The translations under genes were made by a program, and so were the position numbers. DNA of 64,000 nucleotides from Candidatus Spongiisociaceae bacterium. GTDB taxonomy: Bacteria; Actinomycetota; Acidimicrobiia; Spongiisociales; Spongiisociaceae. Below the pieces are notes generated by a model, which worked only from the letters and a program-made list of their open reading frames with translations, was not told the origin of the DNA and searched no databases. The first letter of the stretch is position 1; the number at the start of each line of letters is the position of its first letter. The DNA is taken from NCBI GenBank assembly GCA_965219685.1, contig CBDCOH010000002.1, positions 2,560,001-2,624,000 of the forward strand, given 5' to 3'. This document shows positions 27,290 through 61,125 of this stretch, in pieces.

Positions 27290-28231
27290 TCATTTCGAGC
27301 GCCCTCGGATCTCGGCCAGCAACTGCTCGATCCGCTCCGAACGAGGGAAGGAAGATTGGGTTCCGGGCCGGGTAACGCTGTCAGCCGCACAGGCATTGCC
27401 GAGGCGAACCGCGTCGCGCTCTCCCAGACCCGTGGCGAGCCCGACCACGAAAGCGCCGACGAAGGCATCGCCGGCGCCGGTCGTGTCAACCGGATCCACC
27501 CTCGGCGCCGGAAGGCGCTCGACCCGGTCGAATCCGGCCGACACCAGCGCTGCCCCGTCTTCACCGAGCGTGACGACGAGGCGAGTGGCGGTCTCTTCCG
27601 CGAAGGCTGCGAGGGCACGGTCCGAGTCCGGAGACTCGCCGGTCAGCGTCTCGAACTCCACCTCGTTGGGAATCAGCCAATCGGTCAACTCCAGCAGGTC
27701 GCTCGATAGGGCGGCGGCGGGCGCCGGGTTCAGGACCGTGGTCGCCCCGGTCGTCCGAGCTGCTCGGAACCCGGCCGCGGTTACCTCCTGGGGTATCTCG
27801 AGCTGTCCGACAACCGCCGCTGCGTCCGGCGTCTGCCTGACCGATCGAGCAGCCTGATCACCGGTCAACTCGTGGTTGGCTCCGGGAATGATGATGATCC
27901 GGTTGCTTCCATCCGCCTCGACCCAGATCGGTGCCACCCCGCTGGCCCCCGCGACCCGATACACGTTGGCGGTATCTATACCGAACGCCGCGAAGTTCTC
28001 GAGTGTCATATCGCCGTAGGCATCGGTCCCCAGGCAATTGACCATGACGACCTCTGCCCCCAGCAGACGCGCCATCACCGCCTGGTTGGCCCCCTTCCCG
28101 CCGAACCCCATCTGGAATCGCTCCCCGACGAGGGTCTCCCCGGACTCCGGGAGTCTCGATGCGTAGGCGACCAGGTCGATCATGGTCGAACCGACTACCA
28201 CAACGGTGGGTGGCTTGGGATCCGTAGTCAT
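27290..28231 (-). CDS. rbsK: Ribokinase
   Basis: VVGSTMIDL, GGKGANQA, QLEIP, LNPAPA, PNEVE and DTTGAGDAF. Confidence 0.92.
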   Translation of the reverse strand: MTTDPKPPTVVVVGSTMIDLVAYASRLPESGETLVGERFQMGFGGKGANQAVMARLLGAEVVMVNCLGTDAYGDMTLENFAAFGIDTANVYRVAGASGVAPIWVEADGSNRIIIIPGANHELTGDQAARSVRQTPDAAAVVGQLEIPQEVTAAGFRAARTTGATTVLNPAPAAALSSDLLELTDWLIPNEVEFETLTGESPDSDRALAAFAEETATRLVVTLGEDGAALVSAGFDRVERLPAPRVDPVDTTGAGDAFVGAFVVGLATGLGERDAVRLGNACAADSVTRPGTQSSFPRSERIEQLLAEIRGRSK

Positions 28232-28285
28232 GGAGCCTCCTCGCTGGCTGTCTACCCGATTTCGCAGAACGAATCCGGATTCGGG

Positions 28286-28336
28286 TTGACGCTTTCACAT
28301 CATATGCTATACAGTTTCTGAAAACGTTGTCAGAAA
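28286..28336 (+). promoter_or_regulatory. Housekeeping-type promoter with overlapping LacI-family operator
   Basis: -35 TTGACG (28286-28291) and -10 region TATACAGT (28308-28315), then the near-perfect 22-bp palindrome TTTCTGAAAACGTTGTCAGAAA (28315-28336) with central CG. Confidence 0.8.
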
Positions 28337-28394
28337 AGGTCGTGCACCTGAACTGGGCCCAGGAGTTCTCCAGGTCGAAGAGGAGCCGGTTGGA

Positions 28395-29435
28395 TTGAGA
28401 GCTGCGACCATCGCAGATGTAGCCGGGGAGGCGGGAGTTTCCGTTTCGACCGTGTCGCGTCACCTACGAGGTGACCGGGTGCTCGCGGCCGAACGCATCG
28501 ACCGCGCCATCGCCCACCTTCGTTACCGGCCGAGCCCCGCCGCGCAGTCGCTCAAGTCGGGAAAGACCGGCGCGATCGCACTCGTGGTACCAGACGTTGC
28601 CAACCCGTTCTTCGCGGCGGTTGTCCGTGGGGCGGAGAGCATTACCGCCCAGGGTGGCCACACCATTTTTCTGGCCAACACGGACGAGAACGACGACCGG
28701 GAGGCGGAAGTGGTCGAAGACCTGCTCACCCGGGTCGACGGCATGCTCCTCGCTCCGGCCAGCGAGAACAACCCGACCCCGCAACGGTTGGCGGATGCCG
28801 GCGTGCCGACCGTCCTCATCGATCGCGAGGCACCGTCCACCAGCGGTTTCGATGCGGTGCTGGTCGACAACTACGGAGGAGCTCGGTCCGCTGTGGAACA
28901 TCTGGTGGCGAACGGTCATGAACGGATTGCGACCATCGCCGGATCCGTCGACTCGACCCCCGGCCGTCTCCGTCTCGAGGGGTACCGGGCGACGCTGGCC
29001 GCCGAAGCGATCGAACCTCCGCCCGACTTCGTGCAGTTGGGGGGATTCATGGAGCATGGTGGCTACCAGTCGATGATGCGGTTGCTGGCGCTTCCCGACC
29101 CACCAACCGCAGTTTTCGTAGCCAACAACCTGATGACGATCGGTGCCTTGAGAGCCGTCAAGGACATCGGGGTACGGATACCCGACGATCTCTCGGTTAT
29201 CGGTTTCGACGACCACCCGTTCTCCGAGATCCTCGATCCTCCTCTCACCGTCATCGACCGTCCGATGGAGCAGCAAGGTGCCCTGGCCATGAGGATGCTG
29301 CTGTCCAGGATGGACGAGGCCTCGGTCCGGATGCCGAGGCGTGTCGTCCTCGACACGTCATTGATAGAAAGAGGGTCCTGCGGGCCCCCGCGGAGTGCAC
29401 CGATGGGCACTGGCGCCAGGGCCGGCGACGTTTGA
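28395..29435 (+). CDS. LacI-family transcriptional regulator
   Basis: TIADVAGEAGVSVSTVSR HTH, NPFF, GHERIA, NNLMTIG, IPDDLSVIGFDD and LIERGS. AGGAG RBS with TTG start. Confidence 0.95.
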   Translation: MRAATIADVAGEAGVSVSTVSRHLRGDRVLAAERIDRAIAHLRYRPSPAAQSLKSGKTGAIALVVPDVANPFFAAVVRGAESITAQGGHTIFLANTDENDDREAEVVEDLLTRVDGMLLAPASENNPTPQRLADAGVPTVLIDREAPSTSGFDAVLVDNYGGARSAVEHLVANGHERIATIAGSVDSTPGRLRLEGYRATLAAEAIEPPPDFVQLGGFMEHGGYQSMMRLLALPDPPTAVFVANNLMTIGALRAVKDIGVRIPDDLSVIGFDDHPFSEILDPPLTVIDRPMEQQGALAMRMLLSRMDEASVRMPRRVVLDTSLIERGSCGPPRSAPMGTGARAGDV

Positions 29436-29528
29436 AATGTCAACCCGGGTAGCTGCAACCGATCCGACCCCGCCGGGGACGGTCGGTATGCAGACGAAGA
29501 AAGTCAACAATCGAGTTAAGGAGAGAGA

Positions 29529-30623
29529 ATGCGAGGAAAACGCACAGTACTTCTAGCCCTCCCGGCCCTCCTTGCCCTGGTTATGGCCACGGCATGCGGT
29601 GGGGAGTCGGAGGAGACCACCACCACGGCTGCCGCGCCTGCCACGACCGCGGCGGCCGAAACGACGACAACAACCGAGGCGGCACCCGAGGCCAGCCTCA
29701 AGGTCGCTGTCGCCTATGACCTGGCCGGCAGAGGGGACGGCGGATTCAACGATCTCGCCTACAACGGCGCCGAGCAGGCCGCGGCCGAACTCGGACTCGA
29801 GCTGACCGAGGTCACCGCGAAGGCGGAGGACACCGACCAGGATCGTTCCGATCGTCTGAGGCTGCTGGCGGATTCGGGTCACAATCCGATCATCGCGGTC
29901 GGGTTCACGTACGCTGGTCCGGTCGCCGAAGTTGCAGCCGAGTACCCCGACGTGTGGTTCGGAATCGTCGACGACGCCACGGTGGAGGCACCCAACGTCG
30001 CCGGTCTGGTGTTCGCCGAGGAGGAGGGTTCCTTCCTCGTCGGAGTGGTGGCCGCGCTCGAGAGCGAGACCGGCCATGTGGGATTCATCGGCGGTGTGAA
30101 CGTTCCGCTGATCGTCAAGTTCGAAGCCGGTTACATCGCGGGTGCGAAGACCGTGAACCCCGACATCGAGATCACATCCACATACCTCAGCCAGCCCCCG
30201 GACTTCTCCGGATTCAACGATCCGGCCAAGGGCAAGGAGGCGGCCAAGGGAATGTTCGATGCCGGTGCCGACATCGTGTACGCAGCCGCCGGTGGATCCG
30301 GCGGGGGACTCTTCGAAGCGGCCACAGAAGGCGGGTACCTGGCCATCGGTGTGGATGCCGACCAGTACCACACGGCTGCGCCCGAGGTACGCGACGTCAT
30401 CATGACCTCGATGCTGAAGAACGTGAACGTGGCCACCCACACCTTCGTCACGCAGGTGGCGGCCGGGTCCGCCCAGGCAGGGCTCAACCTGTTCGATCTC
30501 GAAGCGGGAGGCGTCGGCTATTCGACCTCGGGTGGTCTGATCGACCACATCGTCGACGAAGTAGATGCCTACGCGGCGCAGATCATCTCCGGCGAGATTA
30601 CGGTTCCTTCCACGACAGGCTAG
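29529..30623 (+). CDS. BMP-family (PnrA-like) nucleoside ABC transporter substrate-binding lipoprotein
   Basis: Lipobox ATAC, GRGDGGFND, VGF, FAEEEGSFLVG, AIGVDADQ and TSMLK. Confidence 0.93.
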   Translation: MRGKRTVLLALPALLALVMATACGGESEETTTTAAAPATTAAAETTTTTEAAPEASLKVAVAYDLAGRGDGGFNDLAYNGAEQAAAELGLELTEVTAKAEDTDQDRSDRLRLLADSGHNPIIAVGFTYAGPVAEVAAEYPDVWFGIVDDATVEAPNVAGLVFAEEEGSFLVGVVAALESETGHVGFIGGVNVPLIVKFEAGYIAGAKTVNPDIEITSTYLSQPPDFSGFNDPAKGKEAAKGMFDAGADIVYAAAGGSGGGLFEAATEGGYLAIGVDADQYHTAAPEVRDVIMTSMLKNVNVATHTFVTQVAAGSAQAGLNLFDLEAGGVGYSTSGGLIDHIVDEVDAYAAQIISGEITVPSTTG

Positions 30624-30629
30624 GAGTCG

Positions 30630-32147
30630 ATGCCCGCCCCGGCCATCGAGCTACGAGGAATCACAAAGAGATACCCGGGAGTCGTCGCCAACCGGGACGT
30701 GAACCTCCGTGTCGAGTCCGGTACCGCGCACGCGGTGATCGGCGAGAACGGGGCGGGCAAGTCGACCCTGATGAACATTCTGTACGGGATGGTTGTGCCC
30801 GATGAAGGAGAGATCCTCGTCGAAGGCACACCCATCCCGATGTCGTCGCCGGCCGATGCCATCGCCGCGGGGATCGGAATGGTGCACCAGCACTTCAAGC
30901 TGGCTGACAACCTGACCGTTCTCGAGAACGTGATCCTGGGCGACGAGCCGACCGGACGCGCCGGCCGGATCGATTTCGAGACCGCGCGGGCCCGGATCGT
31001 GGAGTTGGGGGATCACTACCGGATCCCCATCGAGCCGGACGCCCTGGTCGCCGACCTATCCGTCGGGAACCGGCAGCGGGTCGAGATCATAAAGGTCCTC
31101 TACCGCGGCGCGCGGGTGCTGATCCTGGACGAACCCACGTCGGTGCTGGTCCCCCAAGAGGTGGACGAGCTGCTCAAGAACCTGCGGAGGCTGACCGGCG
31201 ACGGCCTGACCGTGATCTTCATCTCCCACAAGCTCGACGAGGTTCTGGCGGTCGCCGACGAGATCACGGTGATGCGGAACGCGAGGACCGTGGCCCACAC
31301 CAGACCGGCGGAGATCACGTCCAGGGAGCTGGCGCAGCTCATGGTCGGCAGCGAGCTACCGACACCCGAGCCGAGGACCGTCGAGGTGCGTCCGGAGGTC
31401 GGGCTCAGGCTCGAGTCCGTGTCCACGCGGGGTAGCGGTCACGAGACCAGCCTCTCGGACATCGACCTCACCGTCCGGTCCGGCGAGATCGTGGGTATCG
31501 CCGGTGTGGAGGGAAACGGCCAGTCCGAGCTCATCGAGACCATTCTCGGGCTGACCAGTCCCGTTGCCGGCCGCGTGCTGTTCGGCAGCGAGGACGTCAC
31601 GGAGGCGGCCACCAGCGTCCGGCGTCGCCTGGGACTCGCCTACATTCCCCAGGATCGTCACCGCGAGGCTCTGTTGCTGGACGCGGCCCTGTGGGAGAAC
31701 CGCATCCTCGGCCACCAGATGCATCCGCCGATCAATCGCGGGGTGTGGATCGATCGCAAGGCGGCCCGCGCGGATACGGAGAGGATCGTCGCCGACTCGG
31801 ACGTGCGCACTCCCAGCATCGAGGTGCTGGCCTCGGCGCTCTCCGGCGGCAACCAGCAGAAGCTGATCGTCGGCCGCGAAATGGCCGGGGATCCCCGGGT
31901 GCTCATCGCGGCCCATCCGACCCGTGGAGTGGACGTGGGCGCCCAGGCAGCGATCTGGACGCGGTTGTCGGCGGTCAGGCGGGCCGGAGTAGCCGTATTG
32001 CTGGTATCGGCGGACCTTGAGGAGTTGATCGGGATCTCGGATCGGATCCTCGTGATCCTGCGAGGCCGCTTGGTGGGCGAGTTCGATCCCGCGGCGATCG
32101 GGCCGGAGGATCTGGGTGCTGCCATGACGGGAGCCGATGCCGCGTGA
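30630..32147 (+). CDS. Nucleoside/sugar ABC transporter ATPase (duplicated NBD)
   Basis: GENGAGKSTLM, GMVHQHF, LILDEPT, GIAGVEGNGQ, LSGGNQQK and PTRGVD. Confidence 0.95.
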   Translation: MPAPAIELRGITKRYPGVVANRDVNLRVESGTAHAVIGENGAGKSTLMNILYGMVVPDEGEILVEGTPIPMSSPADAIAAGIGMVHQHFKLADNLTVLENVILGDEPTGRAGRIDFETARARIVELGDHYRIPIEPDALVADLSVGNRQRVEIIKVLYRGARVLILDEPTSVLVPQEVDELLKNLRRLTGDGLTVIFISHKLDEVLAVADEITVMRNARTVAHTRPAEITSRELAQLMVGSELPTPEPRTVEVRPEVGLRLESVSTRGSGHETSLSDIDLTVRSGEIVGIAGVEGNGQSELIETILGLTSPVAGRVLFGSEDVTEAATSVRRRLGLAYIPQDRHREALLLDAALWENRILGHQMHPPINRGVWIDRKAARADTERIVADSDVRTPSIEVLASALSGGNQQKLIVGREMAGDPRVLIAAHPTRGVDVGAQAAIWTRLSAVRRAGVAVLLVSADLEELIGISDRILVILRGRLVGEFDPAAIGPEDLGAAMTGADAA

Positions 32148-33244
32148 TCGAGACCCGCATCGAACGTGTTCTGCTCCAGTTGATCGCGCCGGTGGTCGCC
32201 ATCTTCTTCGCCGCCCTCCTGGCCGCTGCCATCCTCCACTTCACGGGCGCCGACGCCGGAAGCGTGCTCGGCGAAGTGGTTGCGTTCGGGACCACGCCGG
32301 CGAGCCTGGTGGCTGTGGTCAACAAAGCCACGACGTTCTACCTGGCAGGAATTGCCGGCGCGATCGGGTTCCGGATGCTGCTCTTCAACATCGGCATCGA
32401 CGGGCAGTACCGGCTTGCGGTGTTCTTCGCCGCGGTGGTGGGCGCGTCGGTGTCGCTTCCGCCGGTCCTCCATGTCACGCTCATCATCCTCGTCGCCATG
32501 GTGGTCGGCGCCGGATGGGCGGCACTCGCCGGTTACATCAAGGTGACGCGCGGGGTCTCGGAGGTCATCAGCACGATCATGCTCAACGCCGTCGCAACCG
32601 GAATCATCGCCTACCTCCTCGCTCCTGGAAGACTGGCCGAGCAAGCGGCCGGTAGTAACAACATCCGGACCACACCGATACCGGCCTCCGGGTGGTTTCC
32701 CGGTTTCGAGGTCGCAGGCAAGGAGGTGTTCGGCTTCACGCTGGTGGCGGTGGCTCTGGGCATCGCCTTCTGGATCCTCCTCAACCGGACCCGCTTCGGC
32801 TTCGAGCTGCGCGCCAGCGGCCTCTCGCTCCGGGCTGCCGCGGTCAGCGGCGTCAACTCCAAGCGCATGATCTTCGTGACGATGGTCATGTCCGGAGCGA
32901 TGGCCGGTCTGGTGGGGATACCCCAACTCCTCGGGTCGTCTCACCAGTACGGCCTCGACTTCCCGGCCGGCTTCGGGTTCACCGGCCTCGCCATCGCGAT
33001 CCTCGGCCGTAACCATCCCCTGGGCGTCGCCTTCGGTGCCCTGCTCTGGGCGTGGCTGGAGCGATCCTCCCAGATTCTCGACCTGCTCGGCGTGTCGCGC
33101 GAGATAGTGACCATCATGCAGGCCACGATCGTGTTGAGCGTGGTGGTGGCCTATGAGGTAGTCCGCAGGGTCAACGTGCGCCGGCAGCAGAAGCTGGTCG
33201 GCCGGAGCGAACACGGAGGCATCGAGAACGGGGCAACCGCGTGA
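32144..33244 (+). CDS. Nucleoside ABC transporter permease 1
   Basis: LFNIGIDGQ, SEVISTIMLN, GFELRASG and GFTGLAIAILGRNHP. Confidence 0.93.
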   Translation: MIETRIERVLLQLIAPVVAIFFAALLAAAILHFTGADAGSVLGEVVAFGTTPASLVAVVNKATTFYLAGIAGAIGFRMLLFNIGIDGQYRLAVFFAAVVGASVSLPPVLHVTLIILVAMVVGAGWAALAGYIKVTRGVSEVISTIMLNAVATGIIAYLLAPGRLAEQAAGSNNIRTTPIPASGWFPGFEVAGKEVFGFTLVAVALGIAFWILLNRTRFGFELRASGLSLRAAAVSGVNSKRMIFVTMVMSGAMAGLVGIPQLLGSSHQYGLDFPAGFGFTGLAIAILGRNHPLGVAFGALLWAWLERSSQILDLLGVSREIVTIMQATIVLSVVVAYEVVRRVNVRRQQKLVGRSEHGGIENGATA

Positions 33245-34473
33245 AGACTATCCGCGAGCCCAGGTCTTCGCCCTCGATCTGGGGACGATGGTGGGTGCGG
33301 GTGCTGCTGGCCCTCCTGCTGCTGTCGGCGGTCGCCGACATTGCGAACACCCCGGACCTGCTGTCACGCGGCGCTGTGAGCGCCTCGCTCCGATTTGCGG
33401 TTCCGATCGTCCTGGCCGGGCTCGGCGGGTTGTGGGCGGAGCGCTGCGGCGTCATCAATATCGGCCTCGAGGGCATGATGATCATCGGTACCTGGATGGG
33501 GGCGTGGGCCGGGTTCCAGTGGAGTCCCTGGGTCGGAGTGCTGGCTGCGGTCGCGGGCGGGGCGGTGTTCGGCGCTTTCCACGCCCTGATGACGGTCTCG
33601 TTCGGCGTGGATCAGGCCGTTTCGGGCATCGCCATCAACGTTGCCGCCCTGGGACTGGGCCGGTTCCTGTCGTCGATCTTCTTCGAAGGCCAGCCGGGAG
33701 GAGGGATCAGCCAGTCACCGCACGTCGGCCAGATCGCAAACGTGTCGGTCCCCGGTCTCGCCGAAGTGCTCGATCCGATCGCGCGGCTGGAGACCCCGGT
33801 GATCTCGGACATCGCCGAGATCGGACTCGGCGTGACCACCGGCGTGTCGCTCCTGACCCTGCTGGCGGCCATGCTGGTGTTCCTGTCGTGGTGGGTCCTC
33901 TTCCGGACCAGCTTCGGGCTGCGGCTGCGGGCCTGCGGTGAGAACCCGGCGGCAGCGGATTCTCTCGGAGTGAACCCGAACCGGATGCGCTACGCGGCAC
34001 TCACGGTGTCGGGCGCCCTGGCAGGCCTCGGCGGGGCCTTTTTGGTGACGGTGGCTTCCTCGATCTACCGCGAAGGGCAGGTGGCGGGACGCGGATTCAT
34101 CGGTCTGGCCACGGTCATCTTCGGGAACTGGATGCCGGGTCGCCTCACCATCGGAGCACTTCTCTTCGGGTTCACCGACGCGCTCCGGACCCGCCAGGAG
34201 ACCACGATGACGGCCCTGCTGATCGTCGGGGCGGTGGTGTTCGCCTTCCTTACCGTCCGGGCTATACGCACCCGCAATCGAGGCGCGACCTTCGCGTATG
34301 CGATCGCCGCGGTGGGTCTGGGCTGGTGGTTCCTGGGCTTCGGAGTCGTCCCGTCGGAATTCGTCGGCTTCGCTCCGCACCTGACCACGCTGCTCGTTCT
34401 GTCCCTGGCGCACCAGAAGATTCGCCCTCCGCAGGGAATCGGCGTTCCCTACCGGCGCAGCGAGGCCAACTGA
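33241..34473 (+). CDS. Nucleoside ABC transporter permease 2
   Basis: ERCGVINIGLEGMM, GLRLRACGENP.AADSLG and GRGFIGLA.VIFGNW. Confidence 0.93.
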   Translation: MKTIREPRSSPSIWGRWWVRVLLALLLLSAVADIANTPDLLSRGAVSASLRFAVPIVLAGLGGLWAERCGVINIGLEGMMIIGTWMGAWAGFQWSPWVGVLAAVAGGAVFGAFHALMTVSFGVDQAVSGIAINVAALGLGRFLSSIFFEGQPGGGISQSPHVGQIANVSVPGLAEVLDPIARLETPVISDIAEIGLGVTTGVSLLTLLAAMLVFLSWWVLFRTSFGLRLRACGENPAAADSLGVNPNRMRYAALTVSGALAGLGGAFLVTVASSIYREGQVAGRGFIGLATVIFGNWMPGRLTIGALLFGFTDALRTRQETTMTALLIVGAVVFAFLTVRAIRTRNRGATFAYAIAAVGLGWWFLGFGVVPSEFVGFAPHLTTLLVLSLAHQKIRPPQGIGVPYRRSEAN

Positions 34474-34504
34474 TGGGGTCGAATCCCCCGGAAGGAGAGG
34501 GAAC

Positions 34505-35506
34505 ATGGTGAGAGGACGGTACTGGGAAGGTCCGGTGCTGCGGTCCGTGGCGAACGTGGTGGACCGCTCGCAGCATGTCCATACGTCGAAGGACGCCGTG
34601 GACCGGGTTGCCGCGTGGATGGCCTACGAGGAGTTTTCGTTCCCACGCGGCGGGGCGGTCGGCGAGTTCGACGTGGGCTCCGACCCTGACGACATCATCG
34701 ATGTCACCATGCTGGTGTCGACCCTGAACTTCGCCTTCACGGACTTCGACACCGGACGCAAGTTCGAGGCCGACTACAAGGGGCAGACCTGGTCGGACAG
34801 CCTCGGAATGTTCGCCTGCCTCCATCAGGCCCTCTCGAACGGCGTCCCGCTGCTCGAAGGCCAGTACCTGGCGTCGGTCACGAGAGATGATCTCGATGAC
34901 ATCTTCCGGGGCAACATCGAGATGCCGATGCTCGACGAGCGCAGCGAGATCCTCAACGAGGTAGGGGCTGTGCTGGTGGATCGGTACGGGGGCCGGTTCC
35001 ATCGTTTCGTCCGCAGCTGCGCCCCGGCGATGTACGCGGAAGGTGACGGGCTCATGGAACGGCTCATAGCCGAGTTCCCCCGGTTCGATGACACGAGCAC
35101 CTATCACGGTGCGAACGTGCACATCCACAAGCTCGCCCAACTGGGTCTGTGGACCCTGCACATGGCGCTGCACGCCTCCGGCGAGTGGAGCCTCAGGGAC
35201 CTGTCGATGACAACCGCCTTCGCCGACTACATCGTTCCGGTGGCCTTGGAGGTGATGGGAATCTTCGAGTACACCCCCGAGTTGTCGACCCGCATCGCCG
35301 AGGGCCACATGATCGAGCGTGACAGCGATGAGGAGATCGAGATCCGGGCCCATACCCTGTACGCCACCGCGCTGTTGACGGACGCCATCAACGCTCTGAG
35401 GCCTGCAGACCTCAGCGTTGTGATCCCCCAGGTCGATTTCCGTCTGTGGTCGAAGTACCACGCCACCTTCCGTCCCCACCATCTGACCAGAACGGTGATG
35501 TACTGA
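34505..35506 (+). CDS. Queuosine salvage protein (DUF2419 / QNG1-like queuosine nucleoside/nucleotide N-glycosylase)
   Basis: LNFAF, FPRFDD, KLAQL, TAFADYIVP.AL, EEIEIRA, QVDFRLW and C-terminal PHHLTRTVMY match the conserved blocks of DUF2419. Confidence 0.88.
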   Translation: MVRGRYWEGPVLRSVANVVDRSQHVHTSKDAVDRVAAWMAYEEFSFPRGGAVGEFDVGSDPDDIIDVTMLVSTLNFAFTDFDTGRKFEADYKGQTWSDSLGMFACLHQALSNGVPLLEGQYLASVTRDDLDDIFRGNIEMPMLDERSEILNEVGAVLVDRYGGRFHRFVRSCAPAMYAEGDGLMERLIAEFPRFDDTSTYHGANVHIHKLAQLGLWTLHMALHASGEWSLRDLSMTTAFADYIVPVALEVMGIFEYTPELSTRIAEGHMIERDSDEEIEIRAHTLYATALLTDAINALRPADLSVVIPQVDFRLWSKYHATFRPHHLTRTVMY

Positions 35507-36702
35507 CCTGGCTGCTCCGGCGAACCGGCCCCGGCGGCTATCGGGCCGTGATGCGCATACCTGGGGCCCGGCCTCTGCTGTGGTTCGGGCTGGTCGGTCG
35601 GTTTCCCAACTCCATGTACCCGGTCGGCCTGGTGTTCGCAGTGGAGGCGATCACGGGATCGTACGGGTTGGCGGGCTCGGCCTCGGCGGGCTTCAGCCTC
35701 GCCGGAGCGGTGGCGAAGCCCATCGGCGGACGGCTCGTGGACCGCTACGGCCAGCGCCTCGCGGCGCGGTCCCTGCTGGCAGCCTTCGTAGCTTGCACCG
35801 TGGGCCTGCTGGTGGCGATCAGGGCGGTGGCGGCGCCGTGGATAATCGTGCTGGTGGCGGTCGGTGCGGGGCTGACCGCGCCCACCATAGGCGCCCTGAC
35901 CCGGGTCCGCTGGACCCGGATGGCCGAGGCTTCCGACATGCCACGGTGGCAGGCCCTGGAGTCGGCGAGCGATGAGATCAACTTCATCGTCGGTCCTTCG
36001 GCGGTCTCGGTCATGGCGGCCTGGGTGACGGCTTCGGCATCCCTGGTGGCCGCGACGGCGTTGGCGATCGTAGGCACGCTCGGGGTGACATCACTACCGG
36101 GCGAGCCGCGGGCGGGCCGCGCGAACCGGCCGAGAGCCGGGAACTGGATCAGGGCAACCCATCTTGCCGTACTCGGTTCGGTGGGCGGTCTCGGGATGGT
36201 CCTGGGCGGTGTCACCGTTACGGTCGTCGCCTATACGGCCGAACTCGGATATCCCGCCTGGTCAGCAGTGATCTTTCCCCTCAATGCCGGGGCCAGCTTG
36301 GTGGCCGCGCTGTTCATAGGTCGCATCGGACCTGGCGACCTCATGTCCCAACACCGTAAGGCAACAGTCTGGCTCCTGTTGGTGCTGCTCCCGTACGGCC
36401 TCGGTAACGGCCTCCTGTGGTTCACGGCTACGGCGATGATCGCGGGCCTGGGAACGTCGCCGAACCTGATCCAGGTCAATTCGCTGGCTGTCGCAACCAC
36501 CCCGCCCGAGCGGCGGACCGAGGCACTCTCGTGGATCGCTGCTGCGGCCGGTGTCGGCATCGCCGCCGGATCGGCGATCACCGGCCTGCTGGTGGATGCC
36601 GTCGGTGCTGACGCGGCCCGGATAGCGGTCACCGCTTTCGGTGCTTGTCCCGCCGCTATTACGGTCGCCATGACCTTGACCGGACGGAGAGCGAACCGAT
36701 GA
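35503..36702 (+). CDS. MFS transporter
   Basis: About 12 hydrophobic segments, motif A GRLVDRYGQR, and E..FIVGP. Start uncertain: CTG 35503 overlapping the upstream TGA, or GTG/ATG at 35548-35551. Confidence 0.88.
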   Translation: MTWLLRRTGPGGYRAVMRIPGARPLLWFGLVGRFPNSMYPVGLVFAVEAITGSYGLAGSASAGFSLAGAVAKPIGGRLVDRYGQRLAARSLLAAFVACTVGLLVAIRAVAAPWIIVLVAVGAGLTAPTIGALTRVRWTRMAEASDMPRWQALESASDEINFIVGPSAVSVMAAWVTASASLVAATALAIVGTLGVTSLPGEPRAGRANRPRAGNWIRATHLAVLGSVGGLGMVLGGVTVTVVAYTAELGYPAWSAVIFPLNAGASLVAALFIGRIGPGDLMSQHRKATVWLLLVLLPYGLGNGLLWFTATAMIAGLGTSPNLIQVNSLAVATTPPERRTEALSWIAAAAGVGIAAGSAITGLLVDAVGADAARIAVTAFGACPAAITVAMTLTGRRANR

Positions 36703-37706
36703 CCACACCCATCTTGCTGGATGTCGACACCGGAATCGATGACGCGCTCGCCCTCCTCTACGCGGTGGCCTCCGCCGACGCCCGCCTTGTGGGTGTCAGT
36801 TGCGTCGCGGGCAACGTTTCGCTGGACGAGGTCACAGCCAACACGGCCGCCGTCCTGGATCTGGCCGGATGCCCGGAGACGGAGGTGTCGCCCGGCTGTG
36901 CCCGGCCGATCGAGCGACCGCTCGTCATCACCCCGGAGACCCATGGGCCCACCGGTACCGGGCATGAACGTCTCACGGCATCGCCCCAGCGGATAAGCGC
37001 CAGGTCCGGGGTCGATCTGATAGTCGACACCGCCCGTTCGCATCCGGGGGAGGTAACACTGGTGGCGCTCGGACCGCTGACGAACGTTGCGGTGGCCCTC
37101 GATCGGGAGCCTCGCCTGCTGTACCTGCTCAAGCGATTGGTGATCATGGGGGGTTGCTTCACCGTTGCCGGCAACACTGCTCCTCGTACCGAATGGAACA
37201 TGCATGTCGACCCGGAGGCGGCCAAGGCGGTATTCTCCGCCGCCGGTCGGGGTGCTCGCAGCTTGCCGCTCGTGATGCCGCTGGACCTGACCGAGCATGC
37301 GCGCCTCCTACCGGGCCACGTCTCGCGGATGGCCGAACTCGCCGGAACCGCGATGGAATCGCTGCAACCGCTGGTCTCCGGAGCTCACCCGCTGATGTCC
37401 TTCATCGCCAACGCGCTCAGGTTCTACATGGAGTTCCATCACCGCTACGACGGTTTCTACGGAGCCTTCGTCCACGATCCCTTCGCGGTAGCGGCCGCGA
37501 TGGATCCGTCCCTGGTGACTGTCGTGGAGACCACTGTCGATGTGGAGACGACCGGAGATCTGACGACCGGCGAATCCGTGGCGGACTTCAGAGGCTCCTG
37601 GGGCCGCGGCCGCAATGCCGCAGTCGCCTTGGACGGACGAGCGGACCTGTTCCTGGAACGCCTCGTGGTCAGGATCGGAGAACTGGCCGGCCGCCGGAGC
37701 GGGTAG
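36699..37706 (+). CDS. Nucleoside hydrolase (IU-NH / RihA family)
   Basis: DVDTGIDDALAL (DxDxGxDD), LGPLTNVA, IMGG, EWN..VDPEAA and VHDP. ATGA overlap with the MFS stop. Confidence 0.94.
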   Translation: MTTPILLDVDTGIDDALALLYAVASADARLVGVSCVAGNVSLDEVTANTAAVLDLAGCPETEVSPGCARPIERPLVITPETHGPTGTGHERLTASPQRISARSGVDLIVDTARSHPGEVTLVALGPLTNVAVALDREPRLLYLLKRLVIMGGCFTVAGNTAPRTEWNMHVDPEAAKAVFSAAGRGARSLPLVMPLDLTEHARLLPGHVSRMAELAGTAMESLQPLVSGAHPLMSFIANALRFYMEFHHRYDGFYGAFVHDPFAVAAAMDPSLVTVVETTVDVETTGDLTTGESVADFRGSWGRGRNAAVALDGRADLFLERLVVRIGELAGRRSG

Positions 37707-37819: not shown

Positions 37820-38635
37820 TCAGAGGGCATCGGCCGCCGGGTAGGTTCCCAGGATGTGCAACTCCGCGAGGGTCGCAGGCCGCGGCTCTAGTACGGCCCG
37901 GACACCCTCGGGTCCGGGCCGGTGGAGCATGTCCGCGTAGAACCGGTACTTCCACGCTTCCTCGGCCGGTCGCGATTCCAACCTGGTCAGGTTGGCGCCT
38001 CGCAGTCCTAGTTCCGTCAGGGAGAGAGCGAGCGCTCCCGGGGAGTGAGCGGTCGCGAACACGAACGACGTCTTGTTCGCGTCCGGCGCCACTTGATAAC
38101 CGTCGGCTACGAGGACGACGAATCGGGTGGTGTTGTGCTCCCGGTCCATGAAGTCCTTTGCCAGCACAACCACGCTCTCGTCGAGCGCGGTGTCGGGCGG
38201 CGCGAGGGCCGCCGCGGTCGGGTCCCCCATCTCCACTATCAGCCGCACCGCTCCCGCCGTGTCGTGGGTGGCAAGCGGTTCCCATCCGGCCTGTTCGATC
38301 CGGTCGTCGGCCTGGGCCAGAGCCTGGGGATGGGAATGGACCGTCCTGATCATCTGGAGCGTCGCCCCGGCCAGCCCGATCACGGCATGGCGTACCTCGA
38401 CGAGATGCTCCCCAATTATTGAAGCACGGCTCCTGGTAAGCCTATCCAGAACCGGCAGGACGCTTCCCGTCGTGGAGTTCTCGATGGGGAGCATCAGCCG
38501 GTCCACCTCACCGTCGCGCAAGGCGTGGAAAGCGTGCGCGAAACCGCTGAAACCGAACCGCTCCGCATCCGGGAACAGTTCCCGGACCGCCTGGTCCGAA
38601 TACGATCGTCCTTCGCCCTGGTAGCCCACTCTCAT
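37820..38635 (-). CDS. pheA: Prephenate dehydratase
   Basis: VGYQG..SYS, PIENSTTGSV, SHPQALAQ, NTTRF and ACT domain PGAL...NLTRLESRP. Confidence 0.92.
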   Translation of the reverse strand: MRVGYQGEGRSYSDQAVRELFPDAERFGFSGFAHAFHALRDGEVDRLMLPIENSTTGSVLPVLDRLTRSRASIIGEHLVEVRHAVIGLAGATLQMIRTVHSHPQALAQADDRIEQAGWEPLATHDTAGAVRLIVEMGDPTAAALAPPDTALDESVVVLAKDFMDREHNTTRFVVLVADGYQVAPDANKTSFVFATAHSPGALALSLTELGLRGANLTRLESRPAEEAWKYRFYADMLHRPGPEGVRAVLEPRPATLAELHILGTYPAADAL

Positions 38636-38741
38636 CGGCCGCAGGGTACCTGGCCCTGACAACCCCGAAACCGTCCGGTCGAGCCGCATCCAGCCGGGCC
38701 CGGCCGGCCTGCCGGGCCGCTCCGATACCATTCCCTCCGCA

Positions 38742-40286
<1,545 letters not shown>

Positions 40287-61051: not shown

Positions 61052-61125
<74 letters not shown>

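What the first reader, a model, noticed from the sequence alone, without database searches (positions are those of the whole stretch)
27290..37706. Putative queuosine / modified-nucleoside uptake and catabolism operon built around a QNG1-like hydrolase
Seen: one co-directional run lacI - BMP lipoprotein - ABC ATPase - two permeases - DUF2419 - MFS - nucleoside hydrolase, tightly spaced from the BMP gene onward with several 4-nt overlaps. A divergent ribokinase shares an intergenic region with a LacI-type operator. No tgt or que gene is in the window. Established: DUF2419/QNG1 releases queuine from queuosine or its 5'-monophosphate. The bacterial Q-precursor importers I know best are YhhQ and the ECF component QueT, and QueK is an IU-NH family queuosine hydrolase. 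BMP/Nup ABC systems import nucleosides and ribokinase traps released ribose. Inference: a dedicated, inducible route that imports queuosine or related 7-deazapurine or modified nucleosides by a BMP-type ABC system, cleaves them and uses the ribose. I do not know of a described Q pathway with this transporter class and catabolic layout.
Basis: partly seen in the sequence, partly recalled or inferred. Interest (0 to 1): 0.82.

Follow-up and report, generated by a model that had tools for sequence, protein, structure and literature searches.

The report
Nucleoside-scavenging operon with divergent Qng1-like hydrolase
A sponge-associated actinobacterium carries a repressor-controlled operon for importing nucleosides and splitting off their ribose, and its "queuosine salvage" enzyme belongs to a separate branch of that family that has lost the residues that recognise queuosine, so its substrate is probably another guanine-like nucleoside.

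Summary
The gene layout is real. A ribokinase gene lies divergent from lacI, BMP lipoprotein, ABC ATPase, two permeases, a PF10343 (Q_salvage/Qng1) protein, MFS and IU-NH hydrolase genes. There are three 4-nt overlaps and a conserved LacI-type operator.

The PF10343 protein keeps the catalytic core of Qng1. It lacks two of three proton-relay residues, five of six queuine-pocket residues and two of three phosphate contacts. It falls in a well-supported clade (support 0.99) separate from canonical Qng1.

Across 80 related loci this clade lies with PfkB kinases (64) and IU-NH hydrolases (54). None of 20 canonical-type loci does.

The genome has tgt, queA and queG. No queC, queD, queF or known Q-precursor importer was found, so a role in 7-deazaguanine salvage stays open.

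Best reading: an inducible nucleoside uptake and cleavage operon whose Qng1-like enzyme acts on a guanine-like nucleoside. A dedicated queuosine route is not supported.

This scan has met the same theme on other DNA, there with ECF importers.

The parts
27290..28231 (-). Ribokinase (rbsK), divergent from the operon
   Evidence: PfkB E 1.5e-64 and TIGR02152 298.2 bits against a cut-off of 299.65. All 12 PDB matches at E<=1e-30 are ribokinases, and the GGKGANQA and TGAGDAF motifs are visible in the alignment. It is the only hit above 60 bits in its own genome.
28319..28332 (.). LacI-type operator TGAAAACGTTGTCA (extended imperfect palindrome 28315-28336)
   Evidence: Read. It is the only exact copy in the genome. 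A matching site lies in the rbsK-lacI spacer of 12 of 12 orthologous loci. Promoter-like hexamers on both strands flank or overlap it (28286-28315 on +, 28333-28304 on -). These are consensus matches only.
28395..29435 (+). LacI-family repressor
   Evidence: PF00356 plus PF13377. The best NCBIfam models are RbsR 235 bits, CytR 216 and UriR 192, all far below their cut-offs.
29529..30623 (+). BMP/PnrA-type substrate-binding lipoprotein
   Evidence: PF02608 E 1.8e-56. PDB relatives include TmpC/PnrA 2fqw, pneumococcal lipoprotein 6y9u, and BmpA/BmpD. Signal peptide, Cys and linker are seen.
30630..32147 (+). ABC ATPase with two nucleotide-binding domains
   Evidence: PF00005 with two stretches.
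32144..33244 (+). ABC permease 1
   Evidence: PF02653 E 8e-38. 4-nt overlap with the ATPase gene.
33241..34473 (+). ABC permease 2
   Evidence: PF02653 E 1e-35. 4-nt overlap with permease 1.
34505..35506 (+). Qng1-like N-glycosidase of the W216/I243 clade (P0001, 333 aa)
   Evidence: PF10343 E 6.7e-55. StQng1 structures match at E 4e-45. Shine-Dalgarno-like GGAAGGAGAGGG lies upstream. Residue map; clade.
35446..36702 (+). MFS transporter (start uncertain: 35446, 35548 or 35551)
   Evidence: PF07690 E 5e-20. Junction read. Adjacent to the Qng1-like gene in 15 of 80 related loci, including 2 of 4 Chloroflexota loci that have no ABC system.
36699..37706 (+). IU-NH family nucleoside hydrolase (ORF list starts it at TTG 36645; ATG 36699 is more likely)
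   Evidence: PF01156 E 6.9e-86. The N-terminus reads MTTPILLDVDTGIDD. ATGA overlap with the MFS stop. Best PDB relatives are CU-NH, IU-NH and RihA.

Best explanation
This is a LacI-repressed operon for taking up nucleosides and cleaving them. The proposed steps are as follows.
1. A BMP/PnrA-type ABC importer, and perhaps the MFS carrier, bring nucleosides in.
2. An ordinary IU-NH hydrolase and a divergent Qng1-family N-glycosidase split them into base plus ribose.
3. The divergently transcribed ribokinase, the only one found in the genome, traps the ribose as ribose-5-phosphate.
4. One operator between rbsK and lacI controls both directions.

The Qng1-like enzyme keeps the glycosidase machinery and the guanine-face contacts of Qng1. 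It has lost the queuine pocket, the substrate-assisted proton relay and most 5'-phosphate contacts. It therefore most likely hydrolyses a guanine-like nucleoside other than queuosine-5'-phosphate, possibly a modified one that IU-NH enzymes handle poorly.

Shown here: gene identities, layout, operator conservation, residue pattern, clade separation and recurrent linkage.
Inferred: transport substrate, nucleoside rather than nucleotide as substrate, the identity of the base, and the inducer.
For: Families and layout.

Operator: unique in the genome and conserved in 12 of 12 orthologous spacers.

Residue mapping onto StQng1 (with roles from passages of PMC9881137):
- Kept: K199>K209, D231>D241, Y232>Y242, E267>E277, D298>D311, W302>W315, H316>H326, and C-terminal Y323>Y333.
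- Changed: D69>S72, D207>T217, Y93>S99, W94>L100, W299>F312, W48>G49, H53>E54, K233>I243, Q306 deleted, R80>K86.

In 89 clade sequences W216 and I243 are invariant and D207 is never Asp.

Tree of 215 PF10343 sequences: the W216+I243 set (95 sequences) forms one split with support 0.99. The canonical D69/Y93/D207 set (28 sequences) forms another with support 0.98.

Context of the 80 best related loci: 64 have a PfkB kinase (43 at >=200 bits to this ribokinase), 54 an IU-NH, 16 an MFS, 15 a BMP-type ABC and 12 a LacI. Twenty Chloroflexota loci with canonical-signature Qng1, read to +-8 kb, have 0 of 20 with any of these.

Ribokinase pairing fits a ribose product, and loss of K233 and Q306 fits a nucleoside substrate.

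L030 carries the same ABC-Qng1-like-MFS-IU-NH run together with Nuc_deoxyrib_tr, two PNP_UDP_1, DeoC and further IU-NH genes.

The genome has a second BMP-ABC plus IU-NH locus, about nine BMP paralogues, three IU-NH genes and six PNP_UDP_1 matches.
Against: - No substrate was tested, so pocket changes could still leave room for queuosine.
- The genome has tgt, queA and queG. No QueC was found (the only hit is TilS), no QueF (the only hit is FolE) and no QueD. No YhhQ/QPTR, QueT or preQ1-I/III riboswitch was found. The organism must therefore obtain a 7-deazaguanine from outside, and this operon holds the only Q-family gene found.
- None of the 35 Actinomycetota/Chloroflexota-type genomes tested that carry the clade has QueC, while 32 of the 35 have TGT.
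- The mapping of W48 and H53 rests on a stretch of lower alignment confidence.
- PfkB-Qng1-like fusions noted earlier in this scan would favour a kinase-then-glycosidase route.
- The genome is 96.7% complete with 5.9% contamination.
Confidence: 0.6

Rival explanations
1. Dedicated queuosine route. The ABC system imports queuosine, the Qng1-like enzyme releases queuine, ribose goes to ribokinase, and queuine feeds tRNA modification.
For: PF10343 membership with the catalytic Asp, Lys and C-terminal Tyr. The genome has tgt, queA and queG, but no queC/D/F and no known Q-precursor importer was found. The published survey of Qng1 neighbourhoods lists MFS and an ABC family among transporter candidates (PMC11130926, passages).
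Against: - Five of six queuine-pocket residues are changed, as are two of three proton-relay residues and two of three phosphate contacts (K233, Q306; R80 is Lys).
- The protein lies in a separate clade from canonical Qng1.
- The genome's TGT keeps Cys and Val at the positions of Z. mobilis C158 and V233, and queA and queG are retained. That points to preQ1, not queuine, as the inserted base. The role of these residues is recalled, not tested here.
- No QueL search was possible.
- The IU-NH is closest to general CU-NH, IU-NH and RihA enzymes.
- The clade also occurs in QueC-positive genomes (12 of 15).
- No preQ1 riboswitch or other Rfam element was found in the operon.
Confidence: 0.12
2. 7-deazaguanine precursor salvage for a preQ1-type TGT. 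The Qng1-like enzyme frees preQ1, preQ0 or a convertible base from an imported nucleoside. This supplies tgt-queA-queG in a lineage that has lost queCDEF. The rest of the operon handles the ribose and other nucleosides.
For: - Genome profile: tgt, queA and queG present, no queC/D/F found, no known importer found.
- QueC was found in 0 of the 35 Actinomycetota/Chloroflexota-type genomes with the clade.
- 7-deazapurines lack N7, so ordinary hydrolases are expected to handle them poorly (established chemistry, recalled).
- A UPS transporter next to an Acidobacteriota qng1 carried preQ0/preQ1 in E. coli tests (PMC11130926, passage).
- Streptococci present a parallel unsolved case of QueK with a canonical TGT and no QueL (bioRxiv 10.1101/2025.10.13.681863, passage).
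Against: - Free preQ1 or preQ0 ribonucleosides are not known to be abundant (recalled).
- The proton relay that canonical Qng1 uses for a base without N7 is dismantled (D69, D207), which suits an N7-bearing purine better.
- The context is broadly catabolic.
- The clade occurs in genomes with QueC.
- It also occurs in two small assemblies in which no TGT was found.
Confidence: 0.15
3. Kinase-coupled route. The PfkB protein phosphorylates the imported nucleoside at the 5' position, and the Qng1-like enzyme then cleaves the nucleotide to base plus ribose-5-phosphate, as canonical Qng1 does with Q-5'MP.
For: Canonical Qng1 prefers the 5'-monophosphate and its kinase is unknown (PMC9881137, passages). 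The PfkB-Qng1-like pairing is the most conserved link, with 64 of 80 loci and divergent pairs in 12 of 14 other Actinomycetota-type loci. PfkB-Qng1-like fusion proteins were noted earlier in this scan in other genomes (not re-tested here).
Against: The kinase scores as a ribokinase (298.2 bits against 299.65), is the only one found in the genome, and matches only ribokinases in the PDB. The phosphate contacts K233 and Q306 are lost throughout the clade; I243 is invariant in 89 of 89 sequences.
Confidence: 0.1

Closest known systems
Qng1/QNG1 (DUF2419, PF10343): queuosine-5'-monophosphate N-glycosylase of Sphaerobacter thermophilus and human (Hung et al. 2023, PMC9881137; PDB 7UK3, 7U07, 7U91, 7UGK)
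   Same: Same Pfam family, E 4e-45 to the StQng1 chains. HhH Asp and Lys, the ribose-stacking Phe and Tyr, the guanine-face Asp and Trp, and the C-terminal Tyr with its Glu and His partners are all kept.
   Different: Separate clade with support 0.99. The queuine pocket, the D69/D207 relay and the K233/Q306 phosphate contacts are not kept. It is embedded in nucleoside-catabolic operons with ribokinase and IU-NH, whereas 0 of 20 canonical-signature Chloroflexota loci are.
Corynebacterium glutamicum uriR-rbsK1-uriT-uriH uridine/ribose utilisation operon (recalled; NCBIfam models NF051853 UriR and NF052221 UriH appear)
   Same: The same four functional parts: a LacI-type repressor, a ribokinase, an MFS carrier and an IU-NH hydrolase.
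   Different: Scores are far below the equivalog cut-offs (UriR 191.9 against 550; UriH 199.5 against 450). This operon adds a BMP-type ABC importer and the Qng1-like enzyme, and its ribokinase is divergent rather than in line.
PnrA/TmpC and Bmp nucleoside-binding lipoproteins with their ABC importers (PDB 2fqw, 6y9u, 6shu, 9q1u)
   Same: PF02608 binding protein with a lipoprotein-type N-terminus, a two-domain ATPase and two BPD_transp_2 permeases.
   Different: The ligand is not known here. It is one of about nine BMP paralogues in this genome. It is linked to a Qng1-like gene.
Clostridioides difficile queuosine salvage (QueK hydrolase, QueL lyase, QueT ECF component; Yuan et al. 2019, seen only as cited in passages)
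   Same: Transporter and nucleoside hydrolase genes lie clustered in a bacterium that lacks queDECF but keeps a preQ1-type TGT and QueA.
   Different: Different transporter class. The IU-NH here is closest to general CU-NH, IU-NH and RihA enzymes. QueL could not be searched. The Qng1-like enzyme is unrelated to QueK.
Nucleoside-scavenging islands with a Qng1-like enzyme found earlier in this scan (e1-1150047, e1-1266524, e1-2849765)
   Same: A divergent Qng1-like gene lying with ribokinase-like, IU-NH or Udp genes. The follow-up agents also read these as general nucleoside dismantling.
   Different: Those islands use ECF importers. This one uses a BMP-type ABC system plus a LacI repressor with a defined operator.

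Membership tests
Qng1/QNG1 (PF10343) as a protein family | Significant match to the Q_salvage HMM and to solved Qng1 structures | tested here: met
   PF10343 187.1 bits against a cut-off of 25. 7uk3 and 7u07 match at E 4e-45 over residues 11-333.
Qng1/QNG1 (PF10343) as a protein family | HhH catalytic Asp (St D231) and Lys (St K199); ribose-stacking Phe and Tyr; C-terminal Tyr carboxylate with its Glu and His partners | tested here: met
   D241, K209, F78, Y242, Y333 (last residue), E277 and H326. Among 107 family sequences these columns are kept in 103 to 107.
Qng1 as queuosine-5'-phosphate glycosylase (function) | Queuine 7-substituent pocket: P46, W48, H53, Y93, W94, W299 | tested here: not met
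   P47, G49, E54, S99, L100 and F312, so 1 of 6 is kept. The W48 and H53 columns have lower alignment confidence.
Qng1 as queuosine-5'-phosphate glycosylase (function) | Proton relay D69-N72-D207 fed by the substrate's secondary amine | tested here: not met
   S72, N75 and T217. Among 89 clade sequences none has Asp at the D207 position.
Qng1 as queuosine-5'-phosphate glycosylase (function) | 5'-phosphate contacts R80, K233, Q306 | tested here: not met
   K86 (conservative change), I243 (invariant in 89 of 89) and a 3-residue deletion that removes Q306.
Qng1 as queuosine-5'-phosphate glycosylase (function) | Release of queuine from Q or Q-5'MP | not testable with these tools
   Needs an enzyme assay.
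Ribokinase (TIGR02152) | Score over the equivalog cut-off; ribose and anion-hole motifs | tested here: inconclusive
   298.2 bits against a cut-off of 299.65. All 12 PDB matches are ribokinases, and GGKGANQA and TGAGDAF are seen. The motif roles are recalled.
IU-NH nucleoside hydrolase (PF01156) | HMM match and the N-terminal DxDxxxDD metal motif | tested here: met
   289 bits. DVDTGIDD at residues 8-15 of the ATG-36699 form. The motif role is recalled.
QueK subgroup of IU-NH | Grouping with C. difficile QueK and adjacency to queT | not tested
   No QueK reference sequence was available. The best PDB relatives are CU-NH, IU-NH and RihA. No QueT was found in the genome.
BMP/PnrA nucleoside ABC importer | PF02608 lipoprotein with a two-domain ATPase and two BPD_transp_2 permeases; binds nucleosides | tested here: inconclusive
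   The architecture is met. The ligand is not testable here. NCBIfam's only match is a 'putative B6' system, far below its cut-off.
LacI-family repressor with palindromic operator | HTH plus periplasmic-binding-protein-like domain; a 14-bp CG-centred palindrome in its own promoter region | tested here: met

The most novel reading that the evidence does not exclude
The W216/I243 clade of PF10343 is an unrecognised class of HhH-fold nucleoside hydrolase. It switched from queuosine-5'-phosphate to a free, guanine-like and possibly 7-deaza or otherwise modified nucleoside, and became a standard partner of ribokinase in bacterial nucleoside catabolism. In Acidimicrobiia that have lost queCDEF, it would also be the missing source of the 7-deazaguanine base that their preQ1-type tgt-queA-queG pathway needs, with the BMP-type ABC system or the MFS carrier as the missing importer.
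Probability: 0.2. Interest if true: 0.75.

Novelty: new variant of a known kind. Interest (0 to 1): 0.5.

Why it matters
Databases label every PF10343 protein "queuosine salvage protein". In this sample only a minority of family members carry the residues that recognise queuosine: 28 of 215 have the D69/Y93/D207 set. A large, well-separated clade instead travels with ribokinase and IU-NH hydrolases.

If that clade cleaves another nucleoside, three things follow.
- Q-salvage predictions for many environmental and symbiont genomes would be wrong.
- A new nucleoside hydrolase activity would be waiting to be defined.
- The conserved ribokinase pairing would give a simple handle for testing it.

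For sponge symbionts, the operon adds to the picture of heavy investment in scavenging host- or community-derived nucleosides.

Tried and rejected
- RNA evidence: the look-up of sequencing runs listed no RNA holder.
- Rfam: nothing reached threshold in the operon. The only weak chance-level matches had E of 0.1-0.23.
- No preQ1-I or preQ1-III riboswitch was found in the genome. The preQ1-III control rang nowhere, so that blank carries little weight. preQ1-II was not searched.
- Apparent QueC and QueF hits were followed up and proved to be TilS and GTP cyclohydrolase I.
- QueE and QueH were not searched. QueL could not be searched because I had no family accession or reference sequence.
- The tgt neighbourhood was checked for a transporter. 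It is the ordinary ruvAB-queA-tgt-secDF-apt run.
- Table S2 of PMC11130926, the 51 transporter families found near Qng1, TGT and QueK, could not be read. The stored supplement is cut and held no PF02608, PF02653 or PF00005 terms. Whether BMP-type systems were already listed there is therefore open.
- Zallot et al. 2014 is not held.
- Structure prediction, fold search, complex prediction and the protein atlas were not used. The sequence match to solved Qng1 is already strong, and these tools would not show pocket geometry.
- A class-wide presence/absence test of the clade against Q genotype was considered and dropped. QueC was found in none of the 35 related Actinomycetota/Chloroflexota-type genomes, which leaves no contrast.
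- Longer fusion forms were not searched systematically. One GNAT-Qng1-like fusion turned up.

Full report
**Observation**

The window is G000:C2:2560001-2624000 of a 4.4-Mb, two-contig genome that is 96.7% complete with 5.9% contamination. The nearest public relatives of its genes are sponge-associated Acidimicrobiia MAGs labelled Candidatus Spongiisocius or Spongiisociaceae. GC content across the region (0.64-0.67) matches the flanks.

- Ribokinase, 27290-28231 (-).
- LacI-family regulator, 28395-29435 (+).
- BMP/PnrA-type binding protein, 29529-30623 (+).
- Two-domain ABC ATPase, 30630-32147 (+).
- Two BPD_transp_2 permeases, 32144-33244 and 33241-34473 (+).
- PF10343 Q_salvage protein, 34505-35506 (+).
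- MFS carrier ending at 36702 (+).
- IU-NH hydrolase ending at 37706 (+).

Three junctions are 4-nt overlaps: ATPase/permease 1, permease 1/permease 2, and MFS/IU-NH. The last holds with the ATG at 36699, which gives the N-terminus MTTPILLDVDTGIDD. The MFS start is ambiguous: 35446, 35548 or 35551. The BMP protein begins with a signal peptide, a Cys and a Thr/Ala/Glu-rich linker.

**Regulation**

The 163-nt rbsK-lacI spacer holds TGAAAACGTTGTCA at 28319-28332.
- It is the only exact copy in the genome. Only five other sites lie within two mismatches.
- A matching site lies in the same spacer in 12 of 12 orthologous loci, and nowhere else in those ~21-kb loci at up to 2 mismatches.
- Promoter-like hexamers on both strands flank or overlap it. 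These are consensus matches only.

One operator controlling both the ribokinase and the lacI-led operon is therefore well supported by sequence. The inducer is unknown. No Rfam element, preQ1 riboswitches included, reaches threshold in the operon.

**The Qng1-like protein**

P0001 matches the solved S. thermophilus Qng1 chains at E 4e-45 over nearly its whole length. I mapped the residues that Hung et al. 2023 describe (PMC9881137; passages read).

Kept:
- the ribose-stacking F78 and Y242;
- the guanine-face D311 and W315;
- the C-terminal Y333, with E277 and H326.

Not kept:
- the proton relay D69/D207 (S72, T217; only N75 remains);
- the queuine pocket Y93, W94, W299, W48 and H53 (S99, L100, F312, G49, E54; the last two columns are less certain);
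- the phosphate contacts K233 (I243) and Q306 (deleted); R80 is Lys.

This is not a single-sequence oddity.
- In 89 sequences of the clade, drawn from 80 loci plus the query, W216 and I243 are invariant, no sequence has Asp at the D207 position, and 88 of 333 positions are at least 95% conserved.
- In 107 family representatives the catalytic columns are nearly invariant. D69, Y93, D207 and K233 appear in only 17, 10, 27 and 31 of them.
- A FastTree of 215 PF10343 sequences puts the 95 W216+I243 sequences in one split (96 members, support 0.99). It puts the 28 sequences with D69/Y93/D207 in another (30 members, support 0.98). The remaining 92 belong to neither.
- For that tree I kept only representatives of 300-400 residues, which is 106 of the 150 listed.

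**Neighbourhoods**

The search for related loci found 263 relatives and kept the best 80. I searched ORFs of those loci with the nine window proteins.

| Feature within the fetched flank (up to 10 kb) | Loci of 80 |
|---|---|
| PfkB kinase | 64 |
| PfkB kinase at >=200 bits to this ribokinase | 43 |
| IU-NH | 54 |
| MFS relative | 16 |
| BMP-type ABC system | 15 |
| LacI | 12 |

Pattern by group:
- **Spongiisociaceae-like loci (17).** All nine genes are present in 10 of 17. The ABC system plus the Qng1-like gene is present in 13 of 17. Some contigs are cut.
- **Outside that group.** The ABC layout recurs only in L030 (no LacI) and L026 (rearranged, contig cut).
- **Other Actinomycetota-type loci (14).** The unit shrinks to a divergent ribokinase/Qng1-like pair in 12 of 14.
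- **Chloroflexota loci (4).** All four have the ribokinase, and two also have the MFS next to the Qng1-like gene.
- **Acidobacteriota-group loci (45).** 39 have IU-NH genes, often several, and 7 have two or three tandem Qng1-like copies.

Pfam annotation of two of these loci:
- L030 carries Nuc_deoxyrib_tr, two PNP_UDP_1, DeoC, aldehyde dehydrogenases and three IU-NH genes around the same core.
- L059 carries three Qng1-like genes, five IU-NH genes, a large outer-membrane barrel and a PfkB kinase.

As a comparator I searched 301 sampled Chloroflexota genomes with a canonical-signature representative. Sixty-eight had a match (one of them, G088, is flagged unpublished). I fetched +-8 kb around 20 of them. 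All 20 have Y93 and D207, and 19 of 20 have D69. None of the 20 has a homologue of the ribokinase, IU-NH, BMP, MFS or LacI proteins nearby. I then scanned 59 of the 112 ORFs that are at least 230 residues long and lie within about 2.5 kb of the Qng1 gene, covering 14 of the 20 loci. These gave unrelated housekeeping genes and one TGT.

The recurrent catabolic linkage is thus a property of the W216/I243 clade, not of Qng1 in general.

**Other parts**

- The kinase is just under the ribokinase equivalog cut-off (298.2 against 299.65). It matches only ribokinases in the PDB (12 of 12 at E<=1e-30) and has no paralogue above 60 bits in the genome.
- The IU-NH is closest to CU-NH, IU-NH and RihA structures.
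- The BMP protein is related to TmpC/PnrA, the pneumococcal lipoprotein, and BmpA/BmpD.
- The genome is rich in such systems, with about nine BMP paralogues, three IU-NH genes and six PNP_UDP_1 matches.
- A second locus holds a fused double-Bmp protein, ATPase, two permeases, an IS110 transposase, an IU-NH and a P450.

**Queuosine genotype**

- The genome has queA-tgt (4-nt overlap, within the ruvAB-queA-tgt-secDF-apt run) and queG.
- The only QueC and QueF signals are TilS and FolE.
- No QueD, YhhQ/QPTR or QueT was found.
- The TGT keeps Cys and Val at the positions of Z. mobilis C158 and V233. From memory of the TGT literature, this marks a preQ1-type pocket.
- The organism therefore needs an outside 7-deazaguanine, probably preQ1. 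No known importer was found.

Among the genomes behind 50 of the related loci, TGT was found in 47. QueC was found in 0 of the 35 Actinomycetota/Chloroflexota-type genomes and in 12 of the 15 Acidobacteriota-group genomes. One of these genomes, G040, is flagged unpublished. Without it the figures are 46 of 49 for TGT and 11 of 14 for QueC. The three genomes without TGT include those of L026 and L030. They are small assemblies, so absence is not shown.

**Reading**

The parts fit an inducible nucleoside uptake and cleavage operon of the kind known from LacI/ribokinase/MFS/IU-NH operons, enlarged by an ABC importer and a second, unrelated glycosidase.

Two inferences about that glycosidase point the same way.
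- Loss of K233 and Q306, together with constant pairing with ribokinase, fits a nucleoside substrate that yields free ribose. Canonical Qng1 yields ribose-5-phosphate and has no ribokinase neighbour.
- Retention of the guanine-face Asp and Trp fits a guanine-like base. Loss of the relay that canonical Qng1 needs for a base lacking N7, and of the large aromatic pocket, argues against queuosine as the specific substrate.

These are inferences, not measurements.

The queCDEF-less genotype keeps a 7-deazaguanine salvage role alive. I give it about 0.15 as a rival and 0.2 within the boldest reading. A dedicated queuosine route gets about 0.12, and a kinase-then-glycosidase route about 0.1.

**Comparison with what is known**

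- Hung et al. 2023 define canonical Qng1 (passages only).
- Quaiyum, Yuan et al. 2024 (PMC11130926; passages and the supplement list only) surveyed neighbourhoods of Qng1, TGT and QueK for transporters. [quoted passage not shown] They also report that a UPS carrier next to an Acidobacteriota qng1 moved preQ0/preQ1 but not Q. Their Table S2 could not be read.
- My searches found no paper that links DUF2419 with ribokinase or describes this clade. These cover only the held library. No paper on Spongiisocius is held.

Earlier follow-ups in this scan reached the same general reading on three other genomes with ECF importers (e1-1150047, e1-1266524, e1-2849765). They also noted PfkB-Qng1-like fusions. 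I re-derived the residue and context arguments independently on this window and did not re-test those records.

**Verdict**

This is a new variant of a known kind: a BMP-ABC/LacI version of a recurrent nucleoside-scavenging island built around a divergent Qng1-family hydrolase whose substrate is open.

Noticed in passing
G000:C2:2369042-2380610 (locus L135 3042-14610), outside the window: A second nucleoside locus. It holds a 688-aa protein with two Bmp domains, an ABC ATPase, two permeases, an IS110 transposase, an IU-NH hydrolase, a cytochrome P450 and a 330-aa ORF with no Pfam match. The P450 with IU-NH pairing echoes the 'orphan P450' island noted earlier in the scan (e1-2849765) and the P450 at the end of L030.
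   Followed up: partly
own genome: About nine BMP-type binding-protein paralogues with matching permease sets are scattered over C2 between 1.69 and 2.72 Mb. This is a marked expansion of this importer class.
   Followed up: no
L059 5332-20543 (Acidobacteriota-group MAG): Three tandem Qng1-like genes, five IU-NH paralogues, a 1151-aa outer-membrane barrel with a CarboxypepD_reg domain, a TPR protein and a PfkB kinase lie in one run. Pocket positions differ between subgroups of the clade, which suggests diversified substrates.
   Followed up: partly
protein P0123: A 500-aa representative fuses an N-terminal GNAT acetyltransferase domain to a Qng1-like domain that is 53% identical to the window's protein.
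   Followed up: no
L084 4179-12075 (G000:C2:312179-320075): queA and tgt lie in a ruvA-ruvB-queA-tgt-secD-secF-apt run. Conserved synteny of this kind could explain why SecD/SecF appears among the published 'transporter candidates' near tgt (PMC11130926 Table 1). That link is my inference.
   Followed up: no
L132 10159-11349: In one of the 14 canonical-signature Chloroflexota loci that were Pfam-scanned, a TGT gene lies about 1.3 kb from the Qng1 gene.
   Followed up: no
window 37820-38731 (-) and 38742-40286 (+): The operon is followed by a convergent prephenate dehydratase gene and then an alpha-amylase-family (maltodextrin glucosidase-like) gene. No terminator-like site was found after the IU-NH gene.
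   Followed up: no
window 61052-61125 (-): A tRNA gene is the only Rfam match at gathering threshold in the window.
   Followed up: no
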